Of a stretch of 64,000 nucleotides of DNA, positions 3,232 to 61,862 are shown one piece after another; position 1 is the first letter of the stretch; the number at the start of each line of letters is the position of its first letter. Below the pieces are notes generated by a model, which did no database searches, was not told the origin of the DNA, and saw only the letters and a list, made by a program, of their open reading frames with translations. The translations under genes were made by a program, and so were the position numbers. The DNA comes from Escherichia phage LPEK22, in sequence record OK283619.1; one strand, written 5' to 3'.

Positions 3232-3238
3232 CTAAATA
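3232..3238 (+). promoter_or_regulatory. Late-promoter-like motif CTAAATA(cc) upstream of a tailspike gene
   Basis: T4 late promoters are TATAAATA. The variant [C/T]TAAATAcc recurs upstream of many late genes in this window. Confidence 0.45.
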
Positions 3239-3271
3239 CCCCATATTGGTCATCCTTTATGGGGTATTATC

Positions 3272-5441: not shown

Positions 5442-5448
5442 CTAAATA
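5442..5448 (+). promoter_or_regulatory. Late-promoter-like motif CTAAATA(cc)
   Basis: Same motif, upstream of the third tailspike gene. Confidence 0.45.
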
Positions 5449-5483
5449 CCCCATATTGGCAAATCCTTATGGGGTATTTTCAA

Positions 5484-8249
5484 ATGACCAGAAATGTAGA
5501 AGAATTATTCGGCGGCGTAATCACAGCTCCCCACCAGATTCCTTTCACGTATAAATCAAATGTCGGTGGAGAAACTTTCCTTTCTTTGCCGTTCCATCCC
5601 GTCACTGGTGTTATCACAATCAACGGTGGTATGCAAGTTCCGTTAGACAACTTTGAAATCGAAGGAAATACATTGAATCTCGGACGCGCATTGTCCAAAG
5701 GCGATGTTGTGTATTGCTTATTCGATAAAATTCTTTCGCCAGAAGATACAGCCAAAGGTATCCGCATATACAAATTTCAGGCCGTAGGAGGTGAAACCGA
5801 GTTCACTCCTGATTTCACATCTTATGGAGTCCAATCTCTTTATATCGGTGGCGAGTACAAAACCCCCGAAATTGAATATTCCTATGACAGTACGACAGGA
5901 AAAGTATCTTTGCAAACTGCACTGACTGCAGGCGTTTGGGTAGTCGCTGAAATGTCTGTTAAACAACCGAATATCAGTCCGGCGTTTGACCGAAGTATTC
6001 AAGAAATCGCCCGTTCTGCTAATGTAAAAGACTCTGAAGTCATCGTTAGTACGGACACCATATCTTTGTTGGATGGGAAGAAAGTTGTTTATGACATAGC
6101 GGCGCAAACCAGTTATGGTTTACCAACCATTCCTGATGGTTCTGTCATTTCTTCTGTATCTGCTGGGAAATTGAATTACAATCCAGGTGATGTGCAGGTT
6201 GATTTGTTGCCTTTAGAAGATTCATTTATTAATGTGATAAACACTCTGGGGCGAAATGATGGTGCCAAGTATATTGGAGAATGCCATTCTGTTGCTGATC
6301 TCAGGAATACTGAACCCACTATGGATGGACAACGCATTATTCTTAAGCAACACACTGCGGGTACTCTTCTTGGTGGAGGGGTATTCCGTGCGTTAATTGA
6401 TGGTACAGGAAAGACTGATAATAACGGTACTGTGATCAAAACTGTTGGCGGCGCAGCATGGTTACGTGTTAATGCTGATAGAGTTAACCCATTCATGTTT
6501 GGTGCTTTGGGTGGTTCTAATGATGATACTATTCCAGTACAATCTTGTGTGGATAGTGGTAAGGCCACACAATTAACTGGTGTACATTACGTTAGCAATA
6601 TCCAGTTAAAATATAATACGTCGTCTATTTATGGGTCTGGATTACATTACTCAAGGTTGCATCAGTTGCCTTCTGCTACTGGGAATTGTATTACCATAAA
6701 AGATACATGCTCCCTTATTGTATTAGACGCCTTTGGGGTATATGGCACAGGTGCACAACAAGGCACGTCATTTACTGCGGGCACAACAGGTATCTATGTA
6801 GAAACTCCTTCAGGTCTCTCAGCCGATTATCCGTTCCACACTACCGCAGACCCAAGACGGGACTTGTGTATTTCTAAGGTCCATATAGCAGGTTTTGATG
6901 AATATGGGTTAAATATTGATAGTGGTAACTTTAGTGTTACTACAGATTCTCTTTTAGTCAACCACATCAATCAGGTGGGTGTCCGTTGTGCTACTACTGA
7001 TTGGACTTGGACAAATATCCAGGTTAATACCTGCGGTAAACAATGTCTAGTTCTTGATGGTTGTGGTAATGGTCGTATTATTGGCGGTAAATTCATTTGG
7101 GCTAACTGGCAACCTTATGGTACAGTAGGACAGTTCCCAGGCATTACTATTAATAACAGCCAGAATATGGTTATTAATGGTATTGAGGTACAAGATTGTG
7201 GCGGGAATGGTATTGAGATTAGCGAGTCATATTCAATTTCCATGAACGGATTGAACACCAATCGTAACGGCATCAATGCTAACAACACTTTCTACAACAT
7301 CGTATTTAACAAAAGTGATGCAGTTATCAACGGATTCGTAGGACTCAATTATGCCGCGAATAGTGGTTCAGGTGCTAACTCTAGTGCAGGCAATTTTCAG
7401 TTCCTGTCTAATGATTGTAGTGTCACCATTAATGGTGTGGTTGAGACTGGTTATATGGGCATTAACTTTATTGGTGATAACAATATTATCAACCCCACCA
7501 ATTCCGACCTGAGCATTAACGGATTGGTTAATTATTCCAAGACTGGTTTGCAAACCATGAACGAGACCCCTACATTTGATGGTGTTAGCACTACACCTGT
7601 TTATGTAAGTGTCCCATCTTCTGTAGGGCAAGTAAATGGTCTGAGACTATCACAAGCCAACAAAGATAAATTACTGTATTCAAGAACAGCAGGTCCAGAA
7701 GGTATTACCATGGCTGCTGTTGTAGTACCCACCATATCTGGAGCTGAAGTATTTAACTTCATGGCCATTGGTTCAGGGTTTAGTGATACATCCAACAGTC
7801 TTCATCTTCAATTAGTTATAGACGCTTCTGGAAAACAAACAATTGCTTTGCTATTGGGGGGCGATGGTACAACCCAAATTTTATCTGGGGATTTACCTAA
7901 CGACCTTAAACTACAAAGTGGTGTACCATATCATATAGCTATTGGTGCTAAACCTGGATATTTCTGGTGGAGTATTCTTAATATTCAGACGGGTAAGAGA
8001 ATCAGACGGTCATTCCGAGGCGCTTATTTAGCCGTACCATTTAATTCTATATTCGGATTAACTTCTTCATTAACATTCTTCTCGGATAGCAATGCTGGTG
8101 GGGATGCTTGTTCTGGGGTGGGCGCTAAAGTGTATGTTGGTATGTTCTCTTCCGAGAACGATTATGTAGCTTCACGATACTACAATCTGATTAATCCGGT
8201 AGACCCTACTAAGTTAATTAGTTACCGTATATTGGATTCTTCTATTTAA
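5484..8249 (+). CDS. Tailspike protein (about 921 aa) with N-terminal extension and a diverged anchor module
   Basis: ATG at 5484 preferred over the in-frame ATG at 5469, which lies inside the upstream hairpin. Residues about 180-250 (ANVKDSEVIV...VVYDIAAQTSYGLP) are a diverged copy of the module. C-terminal domain fold not verified. Confidence 0.7.
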   Translation: MTRNVEELFGGVITAPHQIPFTYKSNVGGETFLSLPFHPVTGVITINGGMQVPLDNFEIEGNTLNLGRALSKGDVVYCLFDKILSPEDTAKGIRIYKFQAVGGETEFTPDFTSYGVQSLYIGGEYKTPEIEYSYDSTTGKVSLQTALTAGVWVVAEMSVKQPNISPAFDRSIQEIARSANVKDSEVIVSTDTISLLDGKKVVYDIAAQTSYGLPTIPDGSVISSVSAGKLNYNPGDVQVDLLPLEDSFINVINTLGRNDGAKYIGECHSVADLRNTEPTMDGQRIILKQHTAGTLLGGGVFRALIDGTGKTDNNGTVIKTVGGAAWLRVNADRVNPFMFGALGGSNDDTIPVQSCVDSGKATQLTGVHYVSNIQLKYNTSSIYGSGLHYSRLHQLPSATGNCITIKDTCSLIVLDAFGVYGTGAQQGTSFTAGTTGIYVETPSGLSADYPFHTTADPRRDLCISKVHIAGFDEYGLNIDSGNFSVTTDSLLVNHINQVGVRCATTDWTWTNIQVNTCGKQCLVLDGCGNGRIIGGKFIWANWQPYGTVGQFPGITINNSQNMVINGIEVQDCGGNGIEISESYSISMNGLNTNRNGINANNTFYNIVFNKSDAVINGFVGLNYAANSGSGANSSAGNFQFLSNDCSVTINGVVETGYMGINFIGDNNIINPTNSDLSINGLVNYSKTGLQTMNETPTFDGVSTTPVYVSVPSSVGQVNGLRLSQANKDKLLYSRTAGPEGITMAAVVVPTISGAEVFNFMAIGSGFSDTSNSLHLQLVIDASGKQTIALLLGGDGTTQILSGDLPNDLKLQSGVPYHIAIGAKPGYFWWSILNIQTGKRIRRSFRGAYLAVPFNSIFGLTSSLTFFSDSNAGGDACSGVGAKVYVGMFSSENDYVASRYYNLINPVDPTKLISYRILDSSI

Positions 8250-15544: not shown

Positions 15545-15596
15545 ATAATGTTGAAAGGTGGGCGTAAAGCCCACCAAACCAATAGAGGATAAAGAT

Positions 15597-15845
15597 ATGC
15601 GTGGAGTGAAAGTACAGGGGCACGCATCCATGTTGAGAAGCAGTTCTTGCCCTGGCGCGATTATTTGCACCGATCACGCCGCTGGCATGGCTGCATTGCA
15701 AGCCCGTCAACGCAATGAAACCCGTGAAGCCACCATTGTTGAACAATCAAACCAGATATCTAATCTGGAGGCGACAATCAAAATGATGGCCGAAAAGTTG
15801 GGGATCGAAATCCCCGAAGGAGGTCAGAATGGCGACGCAAGCTGA
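15597..15845 (+). CDS. Hypothetical protein (82 aa)
   Basis: ATG at 15597 with aggat RBS, downstream of a hairpin. Track start at 15558 is an alternative start codon. Confidence 0.35.
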   Translation: MRGVKVQGHASMLRSSSCPGAIICTDHAAGMAALQARQRNETREATIVEQSNQISNLEATIKMMAEKLGIEIPEGGQNGDAS

Positions 15846-17150: not shown

Positions 17151-17181
17151 TTATCAATTCCTCAAAAGAATTAATGATTGA

Positions 17182-17188
17182 CTAAATA
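17182..17188 (+). promoter_or_regulatory. Late-promoter-like motif upstream of the gp14-like gene
   Basis: gactaaatacc. Confidence 0.45.
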
Positions 17189-17211
17189 CCTTCAAAATTG
17201 AGGGTAAAGTC

Positions 17212-17853
17212 ATGGCTACTTCAAAATATTTCAACTATACAGCACATCAAGGTACTCAAAAATTAATTGATGACTTGGTGGTCGAGATGATACAATTGCG
17301 TGGGATTGACGTCAAGTATATCCCACGTTCTATTGTTGAAAAATACCCAATTTTAAACGAGGCCGAACACAAATTCGACCAAGCGTTTGACATCGAAGTG
17401 TATATGCAGGATTATCAAGGCTTCAACACACAGATGTGGGAAAAGTTCGGCGGTATCCAATTACAAGATGAAGTGACATTCACTATTGCTCGTCGTCGTT
17501 TTTCAGAAGTTATTGGTAATGGTCCAGGCCTTGAACAAATGCCTCAAGAAGGTGATTTGATATATCTGCCTATGGCTAACAAAATATTTAAAGTGAATAA
17601 CCCGAATAACGATGAAGAATTCATGCAATTTGGGAAATGGTACACATATTCCCTACCATGTACGTTGTTCCAATACGGTAACGAAGATTTCGATACAGGT
17701 GTATCTGAAATAGACGATATTGATAAACGATTGCAGGATCTGGAAGGAGACGGTGTGTACAAAGACGCCAGCCTGCAAACGGATAACCAATTTGCGGACG
17801 AAATAGAGAAAGATCTTTCGCCCAATAAAATGAAGATAGACTTCGGGGAATAA
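17212..17853 (+). CDS. Neck protein, T4 gp14-like
   Basis: LIDDLVVEMIQLRGIDVKYIPRS, LQDEVTFTIARRRF and PQEGDLIYLPMANKIFKVN align with T4 gp14 as recalled. gactaaatacc motif upstream. Confidence 0.8.
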   Translation: MATSKYFNYTAHQGTQKLIDDLVVEMIQLRGIDVKYIPRSIVEKYPILNEAEHKFDQAFDIEVYMQDYQGFNTQMWEKFGGIQLQDEVTFTIARRRFSEVIGNGPGLEQMPQEGDLIYLPMANKIFKVNNPNNDEEFMQFGKWYTYSLPCTLFQYGNEDFDTGVSEIDDIDKRLQDLEGDGVYKDASLQTDNQFADEIEKDLSPNKMKIDFGE

Positions 17854-29815: not shown

Positions 29816-30052
29816 ATGTCTCATCAATTATCTGGCGGTGCAGTCGATACTCTATTCGTTCTTTTCTGGTTTGGACCTCGTGAAGCTGGGGAAATACCTG
29901 CTAAATCTGGAGAAGCCGAATTGGCCTCCCTGGGGTTTTGTAAACGAGTTGATGTTAAAAACGTACCAAAAGGTCGAGATACACATCTGTGTGTACTCAC
30001 CGAGGAAGGTTACAAATACGCATATCTGAAATATGTTTCTCAAAATGCGTGA
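29816..30052 (+). CDS. Hypothetical protein (78 aa)
   Basis: ATG after RBS aaaggagg (track start upstream is an alternative start). Confidence 0.45.
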   Translation: MSHQLSGGAVDTLFVLFWFGPREAGEIPAKSGEAELASLGFCKRVDVKNVPKGRDTHLCVLTEEGYKYAYLKYVSQNA

Positions 30053-30139
30053 TTGTTTATCGTAACGATTTAATACGCGAATAGTTCAATAACAATTCCT
30101 GTTGTACGATATAACTTTCTTACAACAGGAGTATCAGTC

Positions 30140-30454
30140 ATGACAACCCGAAATATTACCTCTGAACAATCCGTGTCACAAATCCTCATTAATTCCCGCA
30201 CCCAAAAAGAACGTCTTTTTGACATCCTCACTAATGTGATCAATATTCGTCGACAATTAGATGGTGAATTTCCCGAATCTGATTCTGAAGAAAAATCAAC
30301 ACACAATCCAGGTCTTGTTGGTGCTATCCTTAACATACAAGGAGAGCAGGACGATATCATCGATAGAATCAATGCCCACATGGACGTCATCCATACTAAA
30401 CTGGGAACGTTTTATCACCCAAATTGTGAAGACGAGTCTAAAGATAATTGTTAA
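30140..30454 (+). CDS. Hypothetical protein (104 aa)
   Basis: ATG. RBS aggag lies in the 3' arm of a hairpin (30098-30129). Confidence 0.45.
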   Translation: MTTRNITSEQSVSQILINSRTQKERLFDILTNVINIRRQLDGEFPESDSEEKSTHNPGLVGAILNIQGEQDDIIDRINAHMDVIHTKLGTFYHPNCEDESKDNC

Positions 30455-30515
30455 TGTTTTCAATAAATGGGTAATGAACCATCATTACCCAACTTTCACA
30501 ATAGGAATACAACTC

Positions 30516-30710
30516 ATGGCAAAAGAAACTCTTAACAATGAAAACTCCAACTTTGCAGAATGGCATACCGAATTAGAGCGCGTTGCCCGTTCTCAACATG
30601 GTTCTGCCGCTGATGCAGATGCTTGGCGTGAAGATTATGAATCTGGAAAAACTCCACGTCAGGCTTGGGAAGACGAATGGGGGTGGGATGATGCCGACTC
30701 TAATCCGTAA
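30516..30710 (+). CDS. Hypothetical small protein (64 aa)
   Basis: ATG at 30516. The longer track ORF from 30261 overlaps the ORF at 30140 out of frame and is probably not its true start. Confidence 0.3.
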   Translation: MAKETLNNENSNFAEWHTELERVARSQHGSAADADAWREDYESGKTPRQAWEDEWGWDDADSNP

Positions 30711-30921
30711 GATATATCTGGATAAGAACTATTTGGAATCTAAAATCGAAGTTTTCACGGCTCAAAAAATATTTGAAGACGGTGAAACGAGATATTATCT
30801 GAATCCAGACCTTTATCTCCCAGGAAGTAATTTGAATCGCGACATATCCCAAATAGACGGCACAATCATTCGTTGGGAAATAGCGACGCAAGAAGACAAC
30901 TGTCACAACATAACACTTTGA
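30685..30921 (+). CDS. Hypothetical small protein (78 aa)
   Basis: ATG at 30685 after a G-rich RBS. The upstream part of the track ORF overlaps the previous gene. Confidence 0.3.
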   Translation, partial: GMMPTLIRKIYLDKNYLESKIEVFTAQKIFEDGETRYYLNPDLYLPGSNLNRDISQIDGTIIRWEIATQEDNCHNITL

Positions 30922-30936
30922 AGAGAGAACTACATC

Positions 30937-31383
30937 ATGTCTAAACAAAATTATATCTTTATTAGTCCAGGACGTTCCCAGTTTTTTCGTAGCGACATCG
31001 ATACACCTATCGAAGGTTTTCGCATTTTCAAATGCTATAAATTGGCCAGCGGTGACATTGATTATCAAAGTCACGACAATGACCGCCAAGACTTGGTTGA
31101 TAACGGTTGGGAAGAAATAGATTCTCCTCAATATCTGACCGTCAACCTTTATTATATGAAGGAAAGCGGTAAATATTATTCGACTGGGGAGTTGAAAATC
31201 CGAGTTTCAGAAGCCCAATCCAATCCAGCAAAAAGTTGGTATGACACGCAAGAGTTAGTGCGTGATCTCCTGAAGAAAGGCGAACTGCCTGGCTTGGTTA
31301 AAGGTTCCCGTTTTGATACCTTCATGTCCTGTGAACAACACCCGTGCTATGTTCCGACTTTATTTAAAATCAGCAACATGTGA
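30937..31383 (+). CDS. Hypothetical protein (148 aa)
   Basis: ATG with upstream gagagaactacatcATG context shared with the ORF at 32106. Confidence 0.5.
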   Translation: MSKQNYIFISPGRSQFFRSDIDTPIEGFRIFKCYKLASGDIDYQSHDNDRQDLVDNGWEEIDSPQYLTVNLYYMKESGKYYSTGELKIRVSEAQSNPAKSWYDTQELVRDLLKKGELPGLVKGSRFDTFMSCEQHPCYVPTLFKISNM

Positions 31384-31394
31384 GAGATTAATAT

Positions 31395-31769
31395 ATGAGC
31401 AATTTACCACTGCTTCAAGTCGGCGATGTGTTCGTTCTCACAGAAGAAATGACCATTGAAACTCAGGTGCCTAAGCATTTCTTGTATTCTAATTGCAAGG
31501 GAGATTGGCAAACGGACTCTGGTTATATCACCCCTGAGGGATTCTTCGGTTACATGCAAGGGCATTATGTCGTTACCAAAACAGCTCTACAAGGAGGTAG
31601 CGCTGGTCACGACCCATACCCAGACGGTCATCATGTTTGGGCACAGCATACCGAAAATGAACGCATCAGGATCTGTTTTTATCAGACAGGCAGCTTCAGA
31701 AACATGCACCGTAACGTTCCAGTAGTCGGAAAAGCCAAGGCGCAAACATGGACTTGGGAGAAATTATGA
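31395..31769 (+). CDS. Hypothetical protein (124 aa)
   Basis: ATG with RBS gagag. ATGA overlap with the next ORF. Confidence 0.5.
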   Translation: MSNLPLLQVGDVFVLTEEMTIETQVPKHFLYSNCKGDWQTDSGYITPEGFFGYMQGHYVVTKTALQGGSAGHDPYPDGHHVWAQHTENERIRICFYQTGSFRNMHRNVPVVGKAKAQTWTWEKL

Positions 31770-32002
31770 GAATCAAAAAGATTGGAGCAAGCCCGTTGAC
31801 GGGCACTATCTTCCAAGGTACATTGAATACCAAAACCAGTATGTGGGTAGGTGAGAAGACCGACGTGACTAACGACTGTGTAGCGGCTACGGCTGAACAT
31901 ATGCGCCACATCAAGAAAGACTACTGCTTCCCTACTAAAGACGGCAAGTTCCTGGTGCTGAGCGCTGAGGTTCACGACACTCTTCCTGATCGCTTCAAAT
32001 AA
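31766..32002 (+). CDS. Hypothetical protein (78 aa)
   Basis: ATG at 31766 after gggagaaatt. Confidence 0.45.
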   Translation: MRIKKIGASPLTGTIFQGTLNTKTSMWVGEKTDVTNDCVAATAEHMRHIKKDYCFPTKDGKFLVLSAEVHDTLPDRFK

Positions 32003-32105
32003 ATTTAAAATTTATTCAATAAACGGGGTTTACTTCTTCAATAAACCCCGTATACTTCATTCCATAAGCAGCACAACACTGACTCTGAAATGAAGGAACT
32101 ACATC

Positions 32106-32570
32106 ATGACAACCGTAAAAATCTCCGTCTGGGCATTCAACAATTTCACCAAATTTGACGCGTTTGTTAAAAACGCTCTGGGCATCACCAACATAGAATC
32201 TTTCACTTCTTATGACCGCGAAGATCAGGTCAAAATGCTTCGTCCTGAAATCGACCTTGACGCAATGCTGAACGCCATCAAGAATCACGATGACAACCTG
32301 GCTGAATTCGAAAACCTCCGCACCTCTATCTTCAAAAAGAACGGTGGCATTCGTAAGCTGAGCAACAAAACCATCAAATATGTCACCGAAGGGTTCTTTG
32401 TGGTGTTCGACTTCATAGAAACCAAGCCGAACGAACTTCGTAAAGATTTAGACGGCAACGTTATCACCCTGAAAATATTTGGCGAAGCCAAAGCCGATAT
32501 GATGCGTGACGGCCTATGTGATGAGACATTCACATACGACGAATATTGCGATCAGTGCCAAGATCTGTAA
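32106..32570 (+). CDS. Hypothetical protein (154 aa)
   Basis: ATG with RBS aaggaa. Preceded by a hairpin at 32023-32051. Confidence 0.5.
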   Translation: MTTVKISVWAFNNFTKFDAFVKNALGITNIESFTSYDREDQVKMLRPEIDLDAMLNAIKNHDDNLAEFENLRTSIFKKNGGIRKLSNKTIKYVTEGFFVVFDFIETKPNELRKDLDGNVITLKIFGEAKADMMRDGLCDETFTYDEYCDQCQDL

Positions 32571-32638
32571 TTTGTTCTAAACCATTTGAACGGGTATGTT
32601 AAAATCATACCCAACCCCTACAAATAGAGGACTATAAC

Positions 32639-32956
32639 ATGGCTTGTAAAACACCAGAAATGAAATTAGTTGTTTCGTCAAAGGGACGTCGCAGCCGCAG
32701 TCGAAATCTCATCACCCGTTTAGATATTCTACGTCAAAAATATCAAGGTCACAGCGTGTTCACGCGCATCCGTAACGCATTAAAGGAAGGGCGAACCGAG
32801 TTGGAGCTATATCGTCCAAACGGTTCGACTCGTGCGTATCAGACCACCGACGGTTTGCTGGAACTGATCCGCCTCTCGGGAATGAGCATAGAACCTCGTT
32901 CATCAGGGACTCCCTTGTGCAGCCTGTATGTAATCGGCAATCTTGGGGCGCTGTGA
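32639..32956 (+). CDS. Hypothetical basic protein (105 aa)
   Basis: ATG with RBS agagga. Confidence 0.45.
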   Translation: MACKTPEMKLVVSSKGRRSRSRNLITRLDILRQKYQGHSVFTRIRNALKEGRTELELYRPNGSTRAYQTTDGLLELIRLSGMSIEPRSSGTPLCSLYVIGNLGAL

Positions 32957-32961
32957 GTTCT

Positions 32962-33384
32962 ATGAAGAAGTATATCGTTCTTATAACGGGTTCCCGTTCT
33001 ATAACTGAGCGGGATAAAATCTTCGCCAAACTGGATGAACTGTTAGATCCCCACGAGATCGAAACTTTTATAGAAGGTGAAGCGGTTGGTGTGGACTTGA
33101 TATCTCGTGATTGGTGTGAAATCAATTATGTCCATGTTACACCAATGGAGATCCCTAAGAATTATCACACGATATATGGGAAAGGCGCAGGAAACCAACG
33201 TAACAAAGATATGTTAGACAAAGCTATGACCCTGGCCAAACAAAAAGGTCTTGAGGTCTTTGGAATTGCATTATGGGATGGTTCGTCTACTGGGACGCAA
33301 GACATGATTACCCGCATGAAAAAAGCAGGTGTCAATGTCAATATCACTCTCATGGGCAAACCCAAAACCAAACGATTGTTATAA
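32962..33384 (+). CDS. SLOG / DprA-like Rossmann-fold protein (DUF2493-like), 140 aa, tentative
   Basis: MKKYIVLITGSRSITE...IETFIEGEAVGVD...GKGAGNQRNKDM resembles the SLOG (Smf/DprA/LOG) fold pattern. Recognition by eye only. Confidence 0.4.
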   Translation: MKKYIVLITGSRSITERDKIFAKLDELLDPHEIETFIEGEAVGVDLISRDWCEINYVHVTPMEIPKNYHTIYGKGAGNQRNKDMLDKAMTLAKQKGLEVFGIALWDGSSTGTQDMITRMKKAGVNVNITLMGKPKTKRLL

Positions 33385-33418
33385 ATATGTTTGCCTTCAC
33401 ACCCATATGGAGTTAGCT

Positions 33419-33589
33419 ATGCTGCAATTAATTTTGATTCTTTGCGTCGCTTTTACCATGTACTTTCTGGCGCGAATCAGTTATATCACACTAAATGATC
33501 TGAAAAATACACCACGCGAACCTAAATTTATATTTCTAAAGAAATACACCAAAAAGTTCTGCGAGAATTTTATCTATCATCTTCCGTGA
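33419..33589 (+). CDS. Small hydrophobic membrane protein (56 aa)
   Basis: One predicted TM helix (LQLILILCVAFTMYFLA). Start uncertain. Confidence 0.25.
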   Translation: MLQLILILCVAFTMYFLARISYITLNDLKNTPREPKFIFLKKYTKKFCENFIYHLP

Positions 33590-33590
33590 T

Positions 33591-33618
33591 TATAAATACC
33601 CCCAAAATTGGGGGTATT
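33591..33618 (+). promoter_or_regulatory. TATAAATA late-promoter-like box fused to a 9-bp-stem hairpin immediately upstream of the ATG at 33621
   Basis: tataaataccccc aaaatt gggggtattt. Arms aataccccc / gggggtatt. Confidence 0.45.
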
Positions 33619-33620
33619 TT

Positions 33621-34349
33621 ATGAACGCACAAATCTACGATGTCCTTTCCTCTGGTAATGCATTTAGCAACCCGCTTCCGTCCCTCTCCGGTCCCTCACA
33701 GGATTTAATCACCAGTGGTAGTACCAATATACCATTGATAACTGCCAACGCGACTCCGGAGATGCAGGCGGCTATGGTTGCTGGTGGACTAACACCAGAA
33801 AAACTCACAGCAGCCACCACCATGTATAGCGCCGCCAACACGGGGATAACGACACTGAACACATATGGCGACCAAAGTATCAATGACGCGTATTCTCGCA
33901 TCGGTACTTCCGTGTCATACAAATCAGGTCTGAAGGGTATATCACGAGAGCCAAACAATTGTGATTTGATCAACAAGGCTTTTGGTGTTGTTCAGGATTT
34001 AGGACGCCAATGGCTGAATGCTATGGAAGGTGCTCTACAGACCGTAACAAACAAGATATCGGAATTGTATGACATGATTATGGAAGGTGCCTCAGAAGGG
34101 ATGGCAAAACTACAGCAATTGGCTGCTGAAGTAACAGGACATATCAATGAGGCAATAACCGCAGTCAACGGGGTTATAAGTGATATTACAGATGGTATAG
34201 CCGCAGAACTTGCTCACATTGAAAGCATGATCAAAGAATGTCTAAACTTCTCTTTTGCGAATGTTCTTGGAGAATGGGCTAAAGATCTCTGTGCTGGAGG
34301 CGTTATTGATAAAATAGGGACTCCAGAATTAAAAGAGTCCCTGAAATAA
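33621..34349 (+). CDS. Hypothetical protein (242 aa)
   Basis: ATG immediately after the TATAAATA plus hairpin element at 33591-33618. Confidence 0.5.
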   Translation: MNAQIYDVLSSGNAFSNPLPSLSGPSQDLITSGSTNIPLITANATPEMQAAMVAGGLTPEKLTAATTMYSAANTGITTLNTYGDQSINDAYSRIGTSVSYKSGLKGISREPNNCDLINKAFGVVQDLGRQWLNAMEGALQTVTNKISELYDMIMEGASEGMAKLQQLAAEVTGHINEAITAVNGVISDITDGIAAELAHIESMIKECLNFSFANVLGEWAKDLCAGGVIDKIGTPELKESLK

Positions 34350-36025: not shown

Positions 36026-36771
36026 TGGTTTCTCTACAGGCTTTGCGCAAACTTAATGACTTTGAAAATCGTCATCATACATTTCAGCAATATTCCTTGC
36101 CGTTTAAGGAACTGACTTGCGTAACTACCGAAAATGGTCGTCACTATGTTTCCCCCACTGGAGTCAAACTAACTTCAGTGACGACCATGTTAGGGCGTAC
36201 TGGTGACCACACATGGTTAGAAGCCTGGCGGGACAAGTTGGGGCATGAAGCTGCTGATATAGAAACACATCGTTGCGCAGACCGTGGGGAAAAACTTCAT
36301 TTGGCTTGTGAGTTGTATCTCAAAAACAGACCAATGAAGGAAGTTCTGGAAGCTGCAGGGGAATACGTGTTTATGTTCAAACAGGTTTTCCCCTACCTTA
36401 ACAAAATGAGCAAGATATATGCACAAGAGATTCCATTATATAGCGAAGTCCTGGGTCTTGCTGGTCGTGTTGACCTCATCGGGGTTTACGAAGGAATTCC
36501 AAGCATAATCGATTTCAAAACATCTAACACCCTAAAAACTCGAAGCATGATAGAAGATTATAGTATTCAATTGTGTCTATACTCAGTCATGTTTCAACAA
36601 ATGTTTAATGTCAAGATAGAGCGTTTAATCAATATTATATCCAACGAAAATGCCCTTGTTCCCACCATAATCGAATTCGATCGCAAAGACGTTATTTCTA
36701 AAATGTTTGACCGTGTCCGTCTGTATCACAAAATGAACAAAGAACAGAACGGAATCTGGGCGGATCGCTAA
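36025..36771 (+). CDS. PD-(D/E)XK family nuclease (RecB/Cas4-like exonuclease fold), tentative
   Basis: GRVDLIGVYEGIPSIIDFKTS fits the D...(D/E)xK catalytic core. ATG at 36025 overlaps the upstream stop. Confidence 0.55.
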   Translation: MVSLQALRKLNDFENRHHTFQQYSLPFKELTCVTTENGRHYVSPTGVKLTSVTTMLGRTGDHTWLEAWRDKLGHEAADIETHRCADRGEKLHLACELYLKNRPMKEVLEAAGEYVFMFKQVFPYLNKMSKIYAQEIPLYSEVLGLAGRVDLIGVYEGIPSIIDFKTSNTLKTRSMIEDYSIQLCLYSVMFQQMFNVKIERLINIISNENALVPTIIEFDRKDVISKMFDRVRLYHKMNKEQNGIWADR

Positions 36772-36774
36772 ATA
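36768..36774 (+). promoter_or_regulatory. Late-promoter-like motif upstream of uvsW
   Basis: gctaaatactc, about 27 nt before the uvsW ATG. Confidence 0.4.
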
Positions 36775-36800
36775 CTCCATAATATTGGGGGAAATTAGTG

Positions 36801-38300
36801 ATGTCTGAGATCCAAATAGTCAAAGTGAACGAAGTTAGAATGCGGATCCTTACCGAGGATTATATCCGTGAAGAACTCAACGATTACTTCAAATTTGAAG
36901 ATCCTAATTTCCAACCGAATCCGTTCAGTAAATGGGACGGCGTAGTGCGGCTGTTCACAAAGAGTTCTGGGCTTATCGACATCGGCCTGTTATTTGAGGT
37001 GTTCAAATTCTGTAAGATGAACGGTTACACCATCAAATTAGATCCGACCTTAAAATATATTCAAGATATTCCGGATGAAGAAATTCATGCGTTCATCGAT
37101 ACATTGAATGCGGTGTACCGAGACGAAAACAAACAATATCAAAAAGCGATTGTCCGCGATTATCAATTTGATTCTGTTGCCACAGCAATACGCCAAAGCA
37201 GATGTGTCCTCGAAGCTGCCACGAGTGCTGGCAAATCCTTTATTTTGTACATCATGGCGCGTTACTACAGGCAACGCAGAGATGCCCTCGAAAGTAATCT
37301 GAGGACGTTAATTGTTGTACCATCCATTCATTTGGTGACTCAGTTGTATGACAACTTCGAAGAATATAGCCACGGGACAGAATGGAAGCCATTGATGAAC
37401 GTCCAGACAATATACGAAGGGGCAACGAAAGAGATTTTCAAACCCATAGTTATTTCAACTTGGCAAGGTATCCAGAACCAACCCAAAGAGTGGTTCCATC
37501 AATTTGGAGATATCGTCGTCGACGAAGTACATACATCAAAATCAGATAAATTGTCTTACATCTTGAACAACTGTATTAACGCTGATCAACGTTTGGGAGT
37601 AACCGGAACCCTGGCGAATACAAAGGTCGCAGGGTTACAAGTCGTTGCTCACTTTGGCGCATATCATAAAATTATTACAGCGCGCGATTTAATCGATCTA
37701 GGATATGCGGTAGACATCAATGTTAATATGATTGAAGTCATACATCCTATGGCAGACTGTATTGAAATGCACGGTGCTGAGTATCAAAAGGAAATAGAAT
37801 TCCTCATTGCTAACGAACGCCGCAATGAATTGATAGCCCGAATGGCTCTATCTTTGAAAGGGAACGTCGCAGTCATGTTCGAACGTATCGATGCACACAT
37901 GATGTTGGTTTATGAAATGCTATCGGCAGTCAAGAAAAACGTATTCGTCATCAACGGGGAAGTCAAGACAGAAGTTCGTAAACAGATTCAGGCTGCTATG
38001 GAAGAAGGGGAAGATATAACACTGTTGGCATCATATGGTACTATGCAACAGGGCGTATCTATCAAAAAACTCCATCATCTGATATTGGCCCATCCCAGCA
38101 AATCTTATATCCGTGTTATACAGACATTGGGGCGTTTGATGCGCCAGCATTCCTCTAAGGATGTTGCGCGAATCTGGGACCTGGTAGACAACCTGCGTTA
38201 CAACGGTTCCTACAACCATGCTCTCAGGCATTCTCATGAGAGATATAAATTTTATCTTATGGAGCGCCACCCTGTTAAAATGAAAAAAGTGGCGCTCTAA
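36801..38300 (+). CDS. uvsW: UvsW-like DNA helicase
   Basis: KWDGVVRL, ATSAGKSF (Walker A), STWQGIQNQPKEWFHQFG, DEVH, ASYGTMQQGVSIKKLHHLILAH, QTLGRLMR and WDLVD align along the length with T4 UvsW as recalled. ATG at 36801 (track start is GTG). Confidence 0.9.
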   Translation: MSEIQIVKVNEVRMRILTEDYIREELNDYFKFEDPNFQPNPFSKWDGVVRLFTKSSGLIDIGLLFEVFKFCKMNGYTIKLDPTLKYIQDIPDEEIHAFIDTLNAVYRDENKQYQKAIVRDYQFDSVATAIRQSRCVLEAATSAGKSFILYIMARYYRQRRDALESNLRTLIVVPSIHLVTQLYDNFEEYSHGTEWKPLMNVQTIYEGATKEIFKPIVISTWQGIQNQPKEWFHQFGDIVVDEVHTSKSDKLSYILNNCINADQRLGVTGTLANTKVAGLQVVAHFGAYHKIITARDLIDLGYAVDINVNMIEVIHPMADCIEMHGAEYQKEIEFLIANERRNELIARMALSLKGNVAVMFERIDAHMMLVYEMLSAVKKNVFVINGEVKTEVRKQIQAAMEEGEDITLLASYGTMQQGVSIKKLHHLILAHPSKSYIRVIQTLGRLMRQHSSKDVARIWDLVDNLRYNGSYNHALRHSHERYKFYLMERHPVKMKKVAL

Positions 38301-39010: not shown

Positions 39011-39679
39011 ATGCAAGAGATCACTCTCTCCGAACGCACTTTACAACTGCTGGCTAACTTTGAAACCATCTGCCCCTCTATCGTTCTGGCACCTGGTAAA
39101 AAGTTGCGCACTGTTAACGATTCCAGTACAGTTATCGCTATTGCCGACATTGACGAAGACTTCCCGTTCGAATTCCCGATTCTGGATCTGACCAAATTGC
39201 TGGCAATCCAGCGTCTGCCGAGTTTTAAAGGCGGTAAAATTGAAATGTCGGAAGACCACATTTTGCTGAAAGGTGAAAACTCCCAACTGCAATTCTGGCG
39301 TTCCGCTAAAGAACTGACTGTCGTTCCGGCAGACAGCATCGATCTCCCGTCTGTAGAATTTGAAGCAACAGTCACTCCTGAAAAAATGAAAGAGCTGACC
39401 CGCGCATGTTCTACTCTGGGCCACAAAACTGTACGCCTGGTTGCCAGCGGCGGTAAAACTCGTCTGGTGGGCACGACCACTACTATCGACAATTCCAACG
39501 ATTACACTGTTGAGTTGGGTGAAACAACTCTGGGTGATTTTGCTATGCCTGTTGATGTGGTCAACCTGAAAATGATCGAAGGCAACTACGTGATCCGCGC
39601 CTGTGCCGAAATGCAACTGGTTAACTTCCAATCCGCAGACGGCACCATCAACTATTACGTCGGCATGCAGCTGGATTAA
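39011..39679 (+). CDS. Sliding clamp, T4 gp45-like
   Basis: LQLLANFETICPSIVLAPG parallels T4 gp45 (LLKNFATINSGIMLKSG). ATG at 39011 with RBS gagga (track start is TTG). Lies upstream of the clamp loader. Confidence 0.8.
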   Translation: MQEITLSERTLQLLANFETICPSIVLAPGKKLRTVNDSSTVIAIADIDEDFPFEFPILDLTKLLAIQRLPSFKGGKIEMSEDHILLKGENSQLQFWRSAKELTVVPADSIDLPSVEFEATVTPEKMKELTRACSTLGHKTVRLVASGGKTRLVGTTTTIDNSNDYTVELGETTLGDFAMPVDVVNLKMIEGNYVIRACAEMQLVNFQSADGTINYYVGMQLD

Positions 39680-51275: not shown

Positions 51276-51593
51276 ATGCTTATGTCAAACAAACCAACTT
51301 ATGTTGAAGTAATGCGTGTTCTGGCTCAGTACGCTTGTGACAACCTGAACATGGAAACCTGGCGCAACGGGGATCACAAGGACAAGTTTGATAACATTGA
51401 TGATAATATCGATGCTTTAGCGCCGTTACGGGTTAAGAATGATCTCGGCGGTGACGATCTTGACATGATTGAGCTGGTCATGGAAATCGAAGAAGAGTAC
51501 GATGTAGAAATTAGTGACGAGTGGGTGGGTAAACATGGAGATGATCCTACCCTCGGAGAGTTAGCTGAACTCGTCGTTGTTCTCTGCAAATAA
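51276..51593 (+). CDS. Acyl-carrier-protein-like protein lacking the phosphopantetheine-site Ser (Ser to Asp)
   Basis: DLGGDDLDMIELVMEIEEEYDVEISDE aligns with the ACP helix II region ([20 protein letters not shown]..EIPDE). The position of the conserved Ser is Asp. Confidence 0.6.
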   Translation: MLMSNKPTYVEVMRVLAQYACDNLNMETWRNGDHKDKFDNIDDNIDALAPLRVKNDLGGDDLDMIELVMEIEEEYDVEISDEWVGKHGDDPTLGELAELVVVLCK

Positions 51594-51602
51594 TAATCCA
51601 TG

Positions 51603-51632
51603 AAATCCCCAATAATTATTGGGGATTTTTAC
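51603..51632 (+). terminator. Rho-independent terminator
   Basis: aaatcccca/tggggattt stem followed by a T-run. Confidence 0.75.
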
Positions 51633-61070: not shown

Positions 61071-61862
61071 ATGGGTATGAATTTTGTAGACAGGGGTGAT
61101 AACGTCACCAAATATTTCACAGACGAAGATAATGACCGTGTTGTTGGAATATTGAGAGATTGGATTCCGGCTCGCAAAAAGGCTTTGGCCGAAGGAACAC
61201 CCCTACCAAGAATCCCCAATTATGTGGCCATGAATGTTCAGATGATTATTAAGAACATGAGTATGCGCTACAACTATCGTGATTATCCATACCGCGAAGA
61301 CATGGTCAGTGAGGCCGTTGTCAACATCCTTCGTTACCTCCATACATTTGACGTCAGTCATATCGGCAAGAAAGGAAAAATCAATTTCTTCTCTTGGGTA
61401 ACGATGTGCGCCGATCGTTCATTCGCCAAGAAACTCACCAGTGAAGAAGAACACAATTATATCAAGTTGCGTTCATTTGAAGAAGCAGGTGGTTTCGCTG
61501 CATTATCAGATGACCCAGACTTCCAGCAACAGACATTCGTAGACAGCACTGGTATAACAATGGACTTCCGTGAGCGTATCGGAAATTTTGAAACTAAGAA
61601 AGAAGCACAGCGCGAAAAGGAACGCCAAAAGCAAATCGCCATCAAAGAAGAGGAAAAGAATAAGAAAATTCCTCGCGGTATACTTCAATGTCTCACAAAG
61701 AGTGAAAATACCATTACCGCCGACGCCGAAGATAATTCAGACTATGACTTCGGCTCTACTCAATTCAATCTGGAAGACGAAATATGTTCTATGGAACCAG
61801 ATTGGGAAGAAGCAAAGAAACGAGCATTAGAACGGGAGCAACAAAATAATGGCGATTGCTAA
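61071..61862 (+). CDS. Late-transcription sigma factor, T4 gp55-like, with C-terminal extension
   Basis: QMIIKNMSMRYNYRDYPYREDMVSEAVVNILRYLHTFD and INFFSWVTMCADRSFAKKLTSEEE parallel T4 gp55 as recalled. 263 aa against about 185 aa in T4; extra Lys/Glu-rich C-terminal region. Confidence 0.75.
   Translation: MGMNFVDRGDNVTKYFTDEDNDRVVGILRDWIPARKKALAEGTPLPRIPNYVAMNVQMIIKNMSMRYNYRDYPYREDMVSEAVVNILRYLHTFDVSHIGKKGKINFFSWVTMCADRSFAKKLTSEEEHNYIKLRSFEEAGGFAALSDDPDFQQQTFVDSTGITMDFRERIGNFETKKEAQREKERQKQIAIKEEEKNKKIPRGILQCLTKSENTITADAEDNSDYDFGSTQFNLEDEICSMEPDWEEAKKRALEREQQNNGDC

What the first reader, a model, noticed from the sequence alone, without database searches (positions are those of the whole stretch)
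33591..33618. Third copy of the promoter-hairpin architecture, with a canonical TATAAATA box
Upstream of the ORF at 33621 the same design recurs with different sequence: tataaataccccc, a 6-nt loop, then gggggtattt, ending 2 nt before the ATG. Independent recurrence at a non-tailspike gene argues that the -10 box plus C-run / G-run palindrome is a functional unit and not a cassette-duplication artefact.
Basis: seen in the sequence. Interest (0 to 1): 0.4.

Follow-up and report, generated by a model that had tools for sequence, protein, structure and literature searches.

The report
Late promoter inside a masking hairpin
The flagged element is most likely a T4-style phage late promoter built into one arm of an RNA hairpin whose other arm hides the next gene's ribosome-binding site, so the gene would be translated only from its own late transcript; this trick is known in phage T4 and here recurs across a different phage family.

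Summary
TATAAATA lies at 33591-33598. A perfect 10-bp inverted repeat, AAATACCCCC / GGGGGTATTT, spans 33594-33603 and 33610-19 with loop AAAATT. The ATG is at 33621.

The window is a Kuttervirus (Ackermannviridae, ViI-like) phage that encodes a gp55-type late sigma factor.

- **Promoter.** CTAAATA is the most enriched 7-mer upstream of genes: 16 of 22 genome copies in one relative and 16 of 20 in another. The box is therefore a T4-type late promoter.
- **Start site.** With T4 spacing, transcription starts at 33604, the first loop base. Late mRNA would lack the 5' arm (-0.2 kcal/mol). Read-through RNA folds at -21.7 kcal/mol and buries the GGGGG ribosome site and the AUG.
- **Recurrence.** About 40% of late-promoter leaders share this design with different sequences, including tailspikes, endolysin, resolvase, helicase and an intron endonuclease. 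A promoter-by-ribosome-site swap test gave 0 of 20,000.
- **Conservation.** The site is kept in six other phages representing at least four more genera, with variable loops.
- **Precedent.** This matches T4 genes e, soc, 49 and I-TevI.
- **Prior annotation.** The LIMEstone1 record already marks the orthologous site as "late promoter" plus "terminator". Termination may contribute.

No transcript mapping exists. Verdict: a new member of a known kind, of moderate interest.

The parts
33591..33598 (+). T4-type late promoter box TATAAATA (conserved core TAAATA 33593-33598, taken as -11..-6)
   Evidence: Sequence. TAAATA is conserved at the orthologous site in six other Ackermannviridae phages, at least four more genera. 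CTAAATA / TAAATAC are the most enriched 7-mers upstream of genes. The orthologous site in LIMEstone1 is annotated as a putative late promoter.
33594..33603 (+). 5' arm of the hairpin (AAATACCCCC). It overlaps the promoter box and the -5..-1 spacer, and lies wholly upstream of the predicted start site.
33604..33609 (+). Loop AAAATT. Base 33604 (A) is the predicted late transcription start, 6 nt after the last A of TAAATA as in T4.
   Evidence: Numbering of the T4 late promoter (-13..-6) from PMC2988020. Prediction. Loop sequence and length vary between genera.
33610..33619 (+). 3' arm GGGGGTATTT. It contains the Shine-Dalgarno GGGGG(T) at 33610-33615, 6 nt before the ATG.
   Evidence: For the identical site in BSP101, the mean unpaired probability of SD..AUG is 0.14 in read-through RNA and 0.69 in late RNA.
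33586..33628 (+). Extended helix predicted for read-through RNA. It includes the stop codon of the upstream ORF, the promoter box, the SD and the AUG (33621-33623).
   Evidence: -21.7 kcal/mol, z -5.9
33621..34349 (+). Controlled gene: 242-aa DUF7217 protein. Its LIMEstone1 ortholog ORF129 is annotated in GenBank as a 'confirmed structural protein'.
33419..33589 (+). Upstream 56-aa ORF. Its transcripts would read into the hairpin. It has its own TATAAATA at 33380-33387.
   Evidence: phrog_4845
3233..3271 (+). Same design upstream of a tailspike gene: TAAATA 3233-3238, arms 3235-3245 / 3258-3268, ATG 3272.
   Evidence: -20.9 full, -5.2 late
5443..5485 (+). Same design upstream of the next tailspike gene: arms 5444-5455 / 5468-5479, ATG 5486.
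17179..17214 (+). Same design with different arms upstream of a neck / head-closure gene: TAAATA 17183-17188, inner arms TACCTTCA / TGAGGGTA, the same AAAATT centre, outer stem reaching the A of the ATG at 17212.
   Evidence: -14.3 full, -0.4 late
36765..36803 (+). Same design upstream of the UvsW-like helicase: TAAATA 36769-36774, inner CTCCA / TGGGG, outer TCGCTAA / TTAGTGA abutting ATG 36801.
   Evidence: -16.2 full, -0.9 late. The inner stem is compensated in LIMEstone1 as TCCCA / TGGGA.
61071..61862 (+). Homolog of the gp55 late sigma factor, the protein expected to read these promoters.
   Evidence: PHROG 234 'late sigma transcription factor', E = 1.6e-53. Annotated as such in BSP101.
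39011..39679 (+). gp45-type sliding clamp, the activator of T4-type late transcription.
   Evidence: Annotation in BSP101. The Pfam match to gp45-slide_C is weak, E = 8e-4 and below the curated cutoff.

Best explanation
The element is a gp55-dependent (T4-type) late promoter embedded in the 5' arm of an RNA hairpin whose 3' arm carries the Shine-Dalgarno sequence of the 242-aa structural-protein gene.

**Proposed mechanism.**
- RNA polymerase carrying the phage late sigma factor recognises TAAATA (33593-33598) and starts at about 33604, in the loop.
- The late mRNA therefore begins AAAAUUGGGGGUAUUUUAUG. It lacks the 5' arm and has an open ribosome-binding site.
- Transcripts that start further upstream, such as those of the co-directional genes 29816-33589, contain both arms.
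- In those transcripts the helix buries the GGGGG site and the AUG, so the gene is not translated. At this particular copy, which is followed by UAUUUUAU, the hairpin may also terminate part of them.
- The net effect is that expression depends only on the gene's own late promoter.

**Shown here:** the sequence, the predicted fold, motif enrichment, conservation, gene-specific complementarity, and the presence of a gp55 homolog.

**Inferred, not shown:** the start site (taken from T4 spacing), the existence of read-through transcripts, and the effect on translation.
For: 1. **Phage type.** The window is a Kuttervirus. It encodes a gp55 homolog and a gp45 clamp. A gp33 homolog is annotated in the near-identical BSP101.
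2. **Promoter motif.** In an unbiased 7-mer test, CTAAATA is the top motif at -60..-8 of genes: 16 of 22 copies in BSP101 (p = 2e-19) and 16 of 20 in LIMEstone1 (p = 6e-21). The a/gC variant at -13/-12 of the T4 consensus is already described for phage Aeh1 (PMC2988020).
3. **Late gene.** The LIMEstone1 ortholog is annotated in GenBank as a confirmed structural protein, and its upstream site is annotated as a late promoter.
4. **Fold.** Read-through RNA folds at -21.7 kcal/mol (z -5.9). RNA starting at the predicted +1 folds at -0.2 to -3.5, depending on the 3' end chosen. In BSP101, where this site is identical, the SD..AUG unpaired probability is 0.14 against 0.69.
5. **Class behaviour.** 10 of 24 late leaders in BSP101 lose at least 10 kcal/mol when started at +1. 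Only 9.1% of geometry-matched pseudo-sites at 208 other genes do so (Mann-Whitney p = 0.0025).
6. **Swap test.** The native promoter-arm x SD-arm duplex energy sum is -161.6. Permuted pairings give -108.7 +/- 10.6, and 0 of 20,000 reach the native value. The focal SD arm is the best partner of its own promoter among 23.
7. **Different arms at other genes.** Examples are ACCTTCGC/GCGGAGGT (endolysin), AATAGATCT/AGGTCTATT, ACCCATAAC/GTTATGGGT (resolvase) and CTCCA/TGGGG (helicase). Several lack any U-tract, so termination cannot explain the class.
8. **Conservation.** Six other phages (at least four more genera) keep the arms. The inner pairs change (AA/TT, AT/AT, CCCTCAC/GTGGGGG) and the loops are unrelated.
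9. **RNA-level signal.** Non-Watson-Crick pairs are G.U in the sense RNA. The sense strand folds better than the antisense in 14 of 20 leaders.
10. **Precedent.** T4 e, soc, 49 and I-TevI use exactly this logic (PMC3014915).
Against: - No 5'- or 3'-end mapping exists for any Ackermannviridae phage in the searchable literature. The start site is therefore extrapolated from T4.
- The bases between the box and +1 are CCCCC. T4 late promoters are A+T-rich there (PMC2988020), so this could weaken promoter opening.
- The ORF immediately upstream has its own late promoter at 33380. At least some read-through RNA would then also be late, which makes a simple early-versus-late gate less compelling at this copy.
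- In Limestonevirus and EspM4VN the runs are unequal (C4/G5 or C5/G4). The helix weakens to about -11 to -13 kcal/mol, and the predicted gain in SD accessibility disappears.
- Covariation at the focal site is thin. The outer 10 bp are invariant, and only one fully compensatory pair change was seen (T-A to C-G).
- The hairpin followed by UAUUUU(CUU) looks like an intrinsic terminator. The LIMEstone1 authors annotated it as one.
Confidence: 0.65

Rival explanations
1. The hairpin is mainly a rho-independent terminator for the upstream 56-aa ORF, and it merely overlaps the next gene's late promoter. Read-through RNA is terminated just before the AUG, and masking of the ribosome site is irrelevant.
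For: - The GC core CCCCCA/TGGGGG is followed by TATTTTAT (6 of 8 T), or TATTTTCTT in other genera. An A-tract lies upstream.
- The element sits 4 nt after a stop codon.
- After correcting the coordinate offset in the record, the LIMEstone1 authors' 'putative factor-independent terminator' is exactly this hairpin. The same is true at the endolysin.
- Sub-threshold Rfam hits are to attenuator-type leaders.
- No other + strand terminator-like site lies between 29762 and 33590.
Against: - The consensus terminator scan did not list it.
- The T-rich tail is forced by complementarity to TAAATA, so it is not independent evidence.
- Sister hairpins of the same design have no U-tract: 17183 GAGGGTAAAGTC, 36769 GGGGGAAATTAGTG, and I-LimII GAAGGAGTATGGTC.
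- The tailspike copies already have a canonical terminator about 50 nt upstream.
- Of the 30 terminators annotated in LIMEstone1, only these two abut TAAATA, and they end 1 and 4 nt from the next ATG. The other 28 have ordinary G+C stems and mostly lie further from the next start.
- This rival is not exclusive of the best explanation.
Confidence: 0.2
2. The complementarity is a coincidence of two consensus elements, a C-rich stretch after the late promoter box and a G-rich Shine-Dalgarno sequence, with no selection for pairing.
For: Several late promoters share TAAATACCCC, and several ribosome sites share GGGGT, so some cross-pairing is expected. Swapped partners still average about -5 kcal/mol.
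Against: - The swap test gave 0 of 20,000.
- Pairing extends beyond the runs into TAT/ATA and, at other genes, into unique flanks such as CGCTAA/TTAGTG and GACT/AGTC.
- C-richness after TAAATA is largely confined to the hairpin-type promoters. The others read ATCTT, ATAGA, ACTGA and similar.
- The arms are conserved and the loops are free across genera.
Confidence: 0.05
3. The palindrome acts as double-stranded DNA. It would be an operator for a dimeric regulator, or a cruciform, that controls the late promoter.
For: The site is a near-perfect inverted repeat centred on the predicted start, and the CCCCC spacer is unusual for a T4-type late promoter.
Against: - Arm sequences differ from gene to gene, so there is no common operator sequence.
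- Loop length varies from 4 to 16 nt.
- Mismatches are G.U in the sense RNA, which would be A.C in DNA or in the antisense strand. The sense RNA is more stable than the antisense in 14 of 20 cases.
- The 3' arm always coincides with the SD or AUG.
Confidence: 0.05
4. Transcription starts upstream of the hairpin, from a sigma-70 promoter or from the 33380 late promoter only. The hairpin is then a constitutive 5'-UTR structure that tunes translation or mRNA stability of the 242-aa gene.
For: A second TATAAATA lies at 33380, and weak sigma-70-like matches occur upstream. A 5'-UTR hairpin that stays in the late transcript does exist elsewhere, at window 15553-15597.
Against: - TAAATA is conserved at this exact position in all the phages examined, even where the 33380-type box is absent (KpS110, KNP4).
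- It matches the genome-wide promoter motif and spacing of 20-49 nt from box to ATG.
- A permanently closed SD and AUG at -21.7 kcal/mol would be odd for a protein whose ortholog is annotated as a virion structural protein.
Confidence: 0.05

Closest known systems
Phage T4 genes e (lysozyme), soc, 49 and I-TevI: late promoter within an inhibitory translation-initiation hairpin (reviewed in PMC3014915)
   Same: - The late promoter (TATAAATA-type) encodes the 5' strand of a helix that sequesters the SD and/or AUG.
- Transcripts from upstream are translationally silent. Transcripts from the late promoter lack the 5' strand and are translated.
- The same functional classes are involved in the relatives studied here: endolysin, Holliday-junction resolvase and an intron homing endonuclease.
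   Different: - The family differs: Ackermannviridae, not Straboviridae.
- The promoter consensus is aCTAAATAc instead of TATAAATA.
- The spacer to +1 is C-rich, acting as an anti-SD mimic, instead of A+T-rich.
- The design is used at roughly 40% of predicted late promoters, including tailspikes and a virion protein. T4 uses it at a handful of genes embedded in early regions.
- Nothing has been tested experimentally here.
Aeromonas phage Aeh1: variant late promoter and the mobE ribosome-site hairpin (cited in PMC2988020 and PMC3014915)
   Same: The late-promoter variant has a/gC at -13/-12, which is the ACTAAATA form seen here. A hairpin sequesters the ribosome site of a homing endonuclease gene.
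   Different: It is a different phage lineage. It was not compared at sequence level here.
Regulatory features in the Dickeya phage LIMEstone1 GenBank record (HE600015; PMC3296691)
   Same: The orthologous site upstream of ORF129 carries a 'putative late promoter' -10 signal. After correcting the record's coordinate offset, it also carries a 'putative factor-independent terminator' that is this hairpin. The endolysin has the same pair of features.
   Different: The two features were annotated independently from in silico scans. The overlap, with the promoter inside the hairpin arm and the SD in the other arm, and its consequence were not described in the paper text that could be searched.
Rho-independent (intrinsic) terminators
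   Same: A G+C stem-loop followed by a T-rich stretch, placed just after a stop codon.
   Different: - The stem is extended by A-T pairs that use up most of the T-tract.
- The 3' arm is the next gene's SD, and the helix can reach its AUG.
- Sister elements lack T-tracts altogether.

Membership tests
T4-type (gp55/gp33/gp45-dependent) late promoter | The phage encodes homologs of the late sigma gp55, the co-activator gp33 and the sliding clamp gp45. | tested here: met
   gp55: window 61071-61862, PHROG 234, E = 1.6e-53. gp45: window 39011-39679, annotated as a sliding clamp in BSP101, with only a weak Pfam match. gp33: annotated in BSP101 at 139499-139741, outside the window.
T4-type (gp55/gp33/gp45-dependent) late promoter | An 8-bp TATAAATA-like box about one helical turn upstream of the start, with no -35 element. 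| tested here: met
   TATAAATA at 33591-33598. The family-wide core is CTAAATA. No conserved sequence appears further upstream in the ortholog alignment.
T4-type (gp55/gp33/gp45-dependent) late promoter | The motif is concentrated just upstream of late (virion, lysis) genes. | tested here: met
   16 of 22 and 16 of 20 CTAAATA copies lie at -60..-8 of genes. The downstream genes are tailspikes, neck, sheath, scaffold, baseplate, endolysin and similar. The ortholog of the focal gene is annotated as a confirmed structural protein.
T4-type (gp55/gp33/gp45-dependent) late promoter | Transcripts start about 6 nt after the box, late in infection, and depend on gp55. | not testable with these tools
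   No transcript mapping for Ackermannviridae was found.
T4 e/soc/49/I-TevI-type inhibitory initiation-region hairpin | The SD and/or AUG are sequestered in a stable helix in upstream-initiated RNA. | tested here: met
   By prediction only: -21.7 kcal/mol, z -5.9, with the helix covering GGGGG and AUG. In BSP101, where the site is identical, P(unpaired) is 0.14.
T4 e/soc/49/I-TevI-type inhibitory initiation-region hairpin | The late promoter lies in the DNA that encodes the 5' strand, so late transcripts lack that strand. | tested here: met
   The 5' arm is 33594-33603 and the predicted +1 is 33604. RNA from +1 folds at -0.2 to -3.5 kcal/mol. This depends on T4 spacing.
T4 e/soc/49/I-TevI-type inhibitory initiation-region hairpin | Upstream (early or middle) transcripts read into the gene. 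| tested here: inconclusive
   All genes from 29816 to 34349 are co-directional, and no + strand terminator-like site lies between 29762 and 33590. LIMEstone1 has a predicted early promoter three genes upstream. However, the nearest upstream promoter (33380) is itself of the late type.
T4 e/soc/49/I-TevI-type inhibitory initiation-region hairpin | Measured translational repression is relieved by removing the 5' strand. | not testable with these tools
   This requires reporter or toeprint experiments.
Rho-independent terminator | A G+C-rich stem-loop. | tested here: met
   The CCCCCA/TGGGGG core with a 4-nt loop.
Rho-independent terminator | An unpaired U-tract of about 7-9 nt immediately after the stem. 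| tested here: inconclusive
   TATTTTAT (6 of 8 T) follows the G-run, but 5 of these bases pair with AAATA in the extended stem. The scan did not list the site. The LIMEstone1 authors did call it a terminator.
Rho-independent terminator | RNA 3' ends map to the U-tract. | not testable with these tools
   No 3'-end data are available.
Any curated RNA family (Rfam 15) | A match at the gathering threshold. | tested here: not met
   No hits in the whole window at gathering thresholds. Only sub-threshold hits to leader and sRNA models with E = 0.13-0.48.

The most novel reading that the evidence does not exclude
Ackermannviridae may have turned the occasional T4 trick into a general rule. A large fraction (about 40%) of their late promoters would be physically fused to anti-Shine-Dalgarno arms, forming a 'translate only from your own promoter' regulon.

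This regulon would cover the tailspikes, a neck protein, virion proteins, the endolysin, a resolvase, a helicase and intron endonucleases. The C-rich spacer would be a co-evolved feature of gp55-type promoters in this family.

At some copies the same hairpin would also terminate upstream transcripts. It would then be a compact three-in-one insulator: terminator, promoter and translational gate. Because it sits at every tailspike junction, it could also serve as the recombination joint for tailspike module exchange.
Probability: 0.2. Interest if true: 0.55.

Novelty: new member of a known kind. Interest (0 to 1): 0.35.

Why it matters
**Late promoter.** The CBA120 genome paper (2011) stated that the late-promoter sequence of ViI-like phages had not been identified. 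A 2024 family review does not mention promoters at all. The analysis here gives a statistically clean late-promoter motif, aCTAAATAc. It also shows that many of these promoters are wired to their ribosome-binding sites through RNA pairing.

**Practical use.**
- It helps with start-codon and regulatory annotation of the roughly 260 related Ackermannviridae genomes found in the phage collection.
- It matters for engineering. Tailspike swaps and reporter insertions in Kuttervirus phages are active applications. Breaking the hairpin, or separating it from its promoter, would change expression.

**Evolution.** The same logic controls the same functional classes (lysin, resolvase, intron endonuclease) in T4 and in this distant family. 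This argues for either very old inheritance or repeated convergence.

Tried and rejected
- **Exact TATAAATA as the family motif.** It is not enriched (3 copies against 2.5 expected). It was replaced by the de novo result CTAAATA.
- **IMG/VR and metagenome scans for more diverged orthologs of the 242-aa gene.** They returned only Kuttervirus or Aglimvirinae-like sequences with the already known hairpin variants. A formal covariation count on the focal helix was therefore not worthwhile. In addition, the MAFFT alignment A1 puts the window's inner TT out of register.
- **Literature.** The paper proposing the genus 'Viunalikevirus' (Adriaenssens 2012, PMC4174289) is not held. I recall from memory that it reports a late consensus like CTAAATAcCcc, and this could not be checked. 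Motif-string searches of papers found nothing relevant. No transcriptome or start-site study of this family was found.
- **Rfam.** No family matched.
- **Sigma-70 promoter reading.** The scan places no good -35/-10 pair here.
- **DNA-operator and pure-coincidence readings.** Both were rejected, as listed under the rival explanations.
Full report
**What is in the sequence.**

One search shows the following layout on the + strand:
- the stop codon TGA (33587-33589) of a 56-aa ORF
- TATAAATA (33591-33598)
- the 5' arm AAATACCCCC (33594-33603)
- the loop AAAATT (33604-33609)
- the 3' arm GGGGGTATTT (33610-33619)
- one T, then the ATG (33621) of a 242-aa ORF

The description in the finding is accurate to within one base.

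The hairpin is not a chance feature:
- RNA 33585-33630 folds at -21.7 kcal/mol, against -7.4 +/- 2.4 for shuffles (z = -5.9, 0 of 200 as good).
- The predicted helix extends outwards to include the upstream stop codon and the AUG.
- The pattern TAAATACCC-N(4-25)-GGGTAT occurs three times in the window against 0.00 expected. Each copy lies immediately upstream of a start codon (3233, 5443, 33593).
- Perfect 10-bp stems with short loops occur at only three loci in the 64 kb.

**What the genome is.**

The region is 99.6% identical to Salmonella phage BRM 13313 and about 99% identical to BSP101. Both are Kuttervirus phages (Ackermannviridae, the ViI-like phages).

These phages are distant relatives of T4 and carry the T4 late-transcription set:
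- The window encodes a gp55-type late sigma factor at 61071-61862 (PHROG 234, E = 1.6e-53).
- A sliding clamp lies at 39011-39679.
- BSP101 also has an annotated gp33 homolog.

The controlled gene encodes a DUF7217 protein. Its LIMEstone1 ortholog (ORF129) is annotated in GenBank as a confirmed structural protein. It is therefore a late gene.

**The box is a T4-type late promoter.**

I assembled the whole BSP101 genome. I then asked which 7-mers are over-represented at -60..-8 of 232 called genes.
- CTAAATA came first: 16 of its 22 genome copies, on both strands, lie in those windows against 0.74 expected (p = 2e-19).
- TAAATAC came second, with 14 of 25 copies.
- In LIMEstone1 (Limestonevirus, about 59% DNA homology to the Kuttervirus phages ViI and CBA120 according to its authors) the same test gives 16 of 20 (p = 6e-21).

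The downstream genes are tailspikes, neck, sheath, scaffold, baseplate, endolysin and similar.

In T4 the late promoter TATAAATA occupies -13 to -6. A variant with a/gC at -13/-12, which is ACTAAATA, is already described for phage Aeh1 (PMC2988020).

The exact T4 8-mer is not enriched in the window. At the focal site the two bases before TAAATA vary even within Kuttervirus and also between genera. The conserved element is therefore TAAATA(C).

The CBA120 genome paper stated in 2011 that the late-promoter sequence of this family had not been identified (PMC3184105). The LIMEstone1 authors annotated 33 late promoters in silico, including the site orthologous to this one.

**How promoter and hairpin fit together.**

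With T4 spacing, the start is the sixth base after the last A of the box. This is 33604, the first base of the loop.
- A transcript starting there lacks the whole 5' arm and is essentially unstructured. It folds at -0.2 to -3.5 kcal/mol depending on the 3' end chosen.
- A transcript arriving from upstream contains both arms.
- For the identical site in BSP101, the mean unpaired probability of the 13 nt before the AUG plus the AUG itself is 0.14 in read-through RNA and 0.69 in the late transcript.

The 3' arm is the ribosome-binding site: GGGGG(T) lies 6 nt before the ATG. The C-run in the promoter spacer is its complement.

**It is a class, not a one-off.**

In the window the same geometry appears at several other sites. 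In each case the 5' arm lies upstream of the predicted +1, and the 3' arm covers the SD and/or abuts the AUG.

| Site | Gene | dG full (kcal/mol) | dG from +1 (kcal/mol) |
|---|---|---|---|
| 3233 | tailspike | -20.9 | -5.2 |
| 5443 | tailspike | -18.9 | -3.8 |
| 17183 | neck / head-closure gene, arms TACCTTCA/TGAGGGTA plus outer stem GACT/AGTC | -14.3 | -0.4 |
| 36769 | UvsW-like helicase, CTCCA/TGGGG plus TCGCTAA/TTAGTGA | -16.2 | -0.9 |
| 10668 | weak copy | -6.3 | -2.7 |

In the rest of the BSP101 genome the design occurs at:
- a further tailspike
- gp064
- gp068 (AATAGATCT/AGGTCTATT)
- the endolysin (AAATACCTTCGC/GCGGAGGTATTT)
- the RuvC-like resolvase (ACCCATAAC/GTTATGGGT)

In LIMEstone1 it is kept at the orthologous tailspikes, endolysin, resolvase and helicase. 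The helicase inner stem is compensated as TCCCA/TGGGA. It also occurs at the baseplate gp6 gene and at the intron endonuclease I-LimII.

Other late promoters (sheath, scaffold and most baseplate genes) have no such hairpin.

**Controls.**

1. *Geometry-matched pseudo-sites.* 10 of 24 late leaders lose at least 10 kcal/mol when started at +1. Only 9.1% of pseudo-sites at 208 other genes do so (Mann-Whitney p = 0.0025).
2. *Swap test.* I paired each promoter-side segment with the ribosome-site segment of every other late gene.
   - The native sum is -161.6 kcal/mol. Permutations give -108.7 +/- 10.6, and 0 of 20,000 reach the native value.
   - For six of 23 promoters, including the focal one, the native partner is the best of all.
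   - The complementarity is therefore gene-specific. It is not just C-rich consensus meeting G-rich consensus.
3. *Strand asymmetry.* Non-Watson-Crick pairs in the helices are G.U in the sense RNA. The sense strand folds better than the antisense in 14 of 20 leaders. This points to selection on the mRNA and not on duplex DNA.

**Conservation of the focal copy.**

I examined six other phages: Taipeivirus KpS110, Agtrevirus EspM4VN and P46FS4, Limestonevirus Ds9CZ, the unclassified Aglimvirinae phage PH4, and Miltonvirus KNP4. Their protein identity to the window gene is 48-68%.
- TAAATACCC(C) and GGGG(G)TATTTT are kept in all six.
- The inner pairs change: A-T/A-T, then A-T/T-A, then A-T/C-G, with a U.G in the C-run in KNP4.
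- The loops are unrelated: AAAATT, TCAAT, CATCC, GAACCT.

This evidence is modest.
- The outer 10 bp are invariant, as expected if they are both promoter and ribosome site.
- Two genomes (EspM4VN and Ds9CZ/LIMEstone1) have unequal C and G runs that weaken the helix.
- Scans of IMG/VR and metagenomes added no new variants.

**The terminator question.**

The hairpin is followed by TATTTTAT, or TATTTTCTT in other genera, and lies just after a stop codon.

In the LIMEstone1 GenBank record a 'putative factor-independent terminator' is annotated next to the late promoter of ORF129, and another next to that of the endolysin.
- I found that all 20 minus-strand terminator features in that record are displaced by exactly their own length.
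- Once shifted, the two features are exactly these hairpins.

Termination of upstream transcripts is thus a real possibility at this copy. It would have the same regulatory outcome, because transcripts that begin in the loop cannot form the terminator.

Termination cannot be the general explanation, for four reasons:
- Several sister hairpins have no U-tract.
- The tailspike copies already have a canonical terminator about 50 nt upstream.
- The T-richness of the 3' arm is forced by pairing with TAAATA.
- Among the 30 terminators annotated in LIMEstone1, only these two abut a TAAATA box, and they end 1 and 4 nt before the next ATG.

**Comparison with what is known.**

The T4 literature describes exactly this logic for genes e, soc, 49 and I-TevI.
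- The SD and/or AUG are sequestered in early and middle transcripts.
- A late promoter lies in the DNA that encodes the 5' strand.
- Late transcripts therefore lack the 5' strand and are translated (PMC3014915).

In the Ackermannviridae genomes examined, the endolysin, a Holliday-junction resolvase and an intron homing endonuclease carry the same device. These match the T4 gene classes. The tailspikes and the focal virion protein carry it as well.

The differences from T4 are:
- the promoter variant (aCTAAATAc)
- the C-rich spacer, where T4 is A+T-rich
- the much higher fraction of late promoters involved

No Rfam family matches. No transcript mapping for this family was found.

**Verdict.**

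The best explanation has confidence of about 0.65. It is a gp55-type late promoter embedded in a hairpin that insulates the downstream gene from upstream transcription. The main mechanism would be masking of the ribosome site, and at this copy perhaps also termination.

This is a new member, in a new family, of a known kind of control. The start site, the existence of read-through RNA and the translational effect are all inferred. 5'/3'-end mapping and compensatory-mutation reporters would settle them.

Noticed in passing
L023-L025 (HE600015, LIMEstone1), all minus-strand 'terminator' features: Every minus-strand terminator feature in this GenBank record is displaced by exactly its own length. 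The annotated intervals fold at about 0 to -5 kcal/mol. The intervals shifted by +length all fold as clean terminator hairpins at -9 to -19 kcal/mol.
   Followed up: yes
BSP101 138344-138390 (L020) and LIMEstone1 42020-41976 (L023); outside the window: The annotated ATG of the RuvC-like resolvase lies inside the 3' arm GTTATGGGTATTT. An in-frame ATG 12 nt downstream has the usual GGGTATTTTT-ATG spacing. The true start is therefore probably the second ATG, and the hairpin masks its ribosome site.
   Followed up: partly
LIMEstone1 139325-139362 (L025): The intron-encoded homing endonuclease I-LimII has a late promoter in the 5' arm (ATACTCTTT), the SD in the 3' arm (GAAGGAGTAT), and an outer stem GACC/GGTC abutting the ATG. 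This parallels T4 I-TevI closely.
   Followed up: partly
window 33380-33387: A second exact TATAAATA lies 31 nt upstream of the 56-aa ORF (ATG 33419). It is conserved as CATAAATA in Aglimvirinae and absent in KpS110 and KNP4. It has no masking hairpin.
   Followed up: partly
window 15542-15597: The late-promoter-like box gcaTAAATAat is followed, downstream of the predicted start, by a strong hairpin GGTGGGCGTAAAGCCCACC that would remain in the late transcript (-16.2 kcal/mol). It may be a 5' stabiliser or an upstream terminator remnant.
   Followed up: no
window 51603-51628: A perfect 10/11-bp hairpin AAATCCCCAAT..ATTGGGGATTT lies right after ORF 51276-51593 (annotated as an acyl carrier protein in BSP101). 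It is probably a terminator.
   Followed up: no
window 33419-34349 (PHROG 289): PHROG 289 'GTP-binding domain' has 500 positions. The 242-aa protein matches it at positions 259-500 and the 56-aa ORF matches at 161-207. The profile therefore seems to span three neighbouring genes. 'GTP-binding domain' labels on orthologs of the 242-aa protein (for example in Klebsiella phage FKP10) are probably artefacts.
   Followed up: no
BSP101 123611 (L020) and LIMEstone1 58527 (L024); outside the window: Here TAAATA sits in the loop of a CCCCC/GGGGG hairpin followed by a T-run. This is a different way of overlapping a terminator-like hairpin with a late-promoter box.
   Followed up: no
window 33621-34349: The DUF7217 protein has 28-31% identical homologs in FelixO1-like phages (Ounavirinae), which are not known to use gp55-type late transcription.
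   Followed up: no
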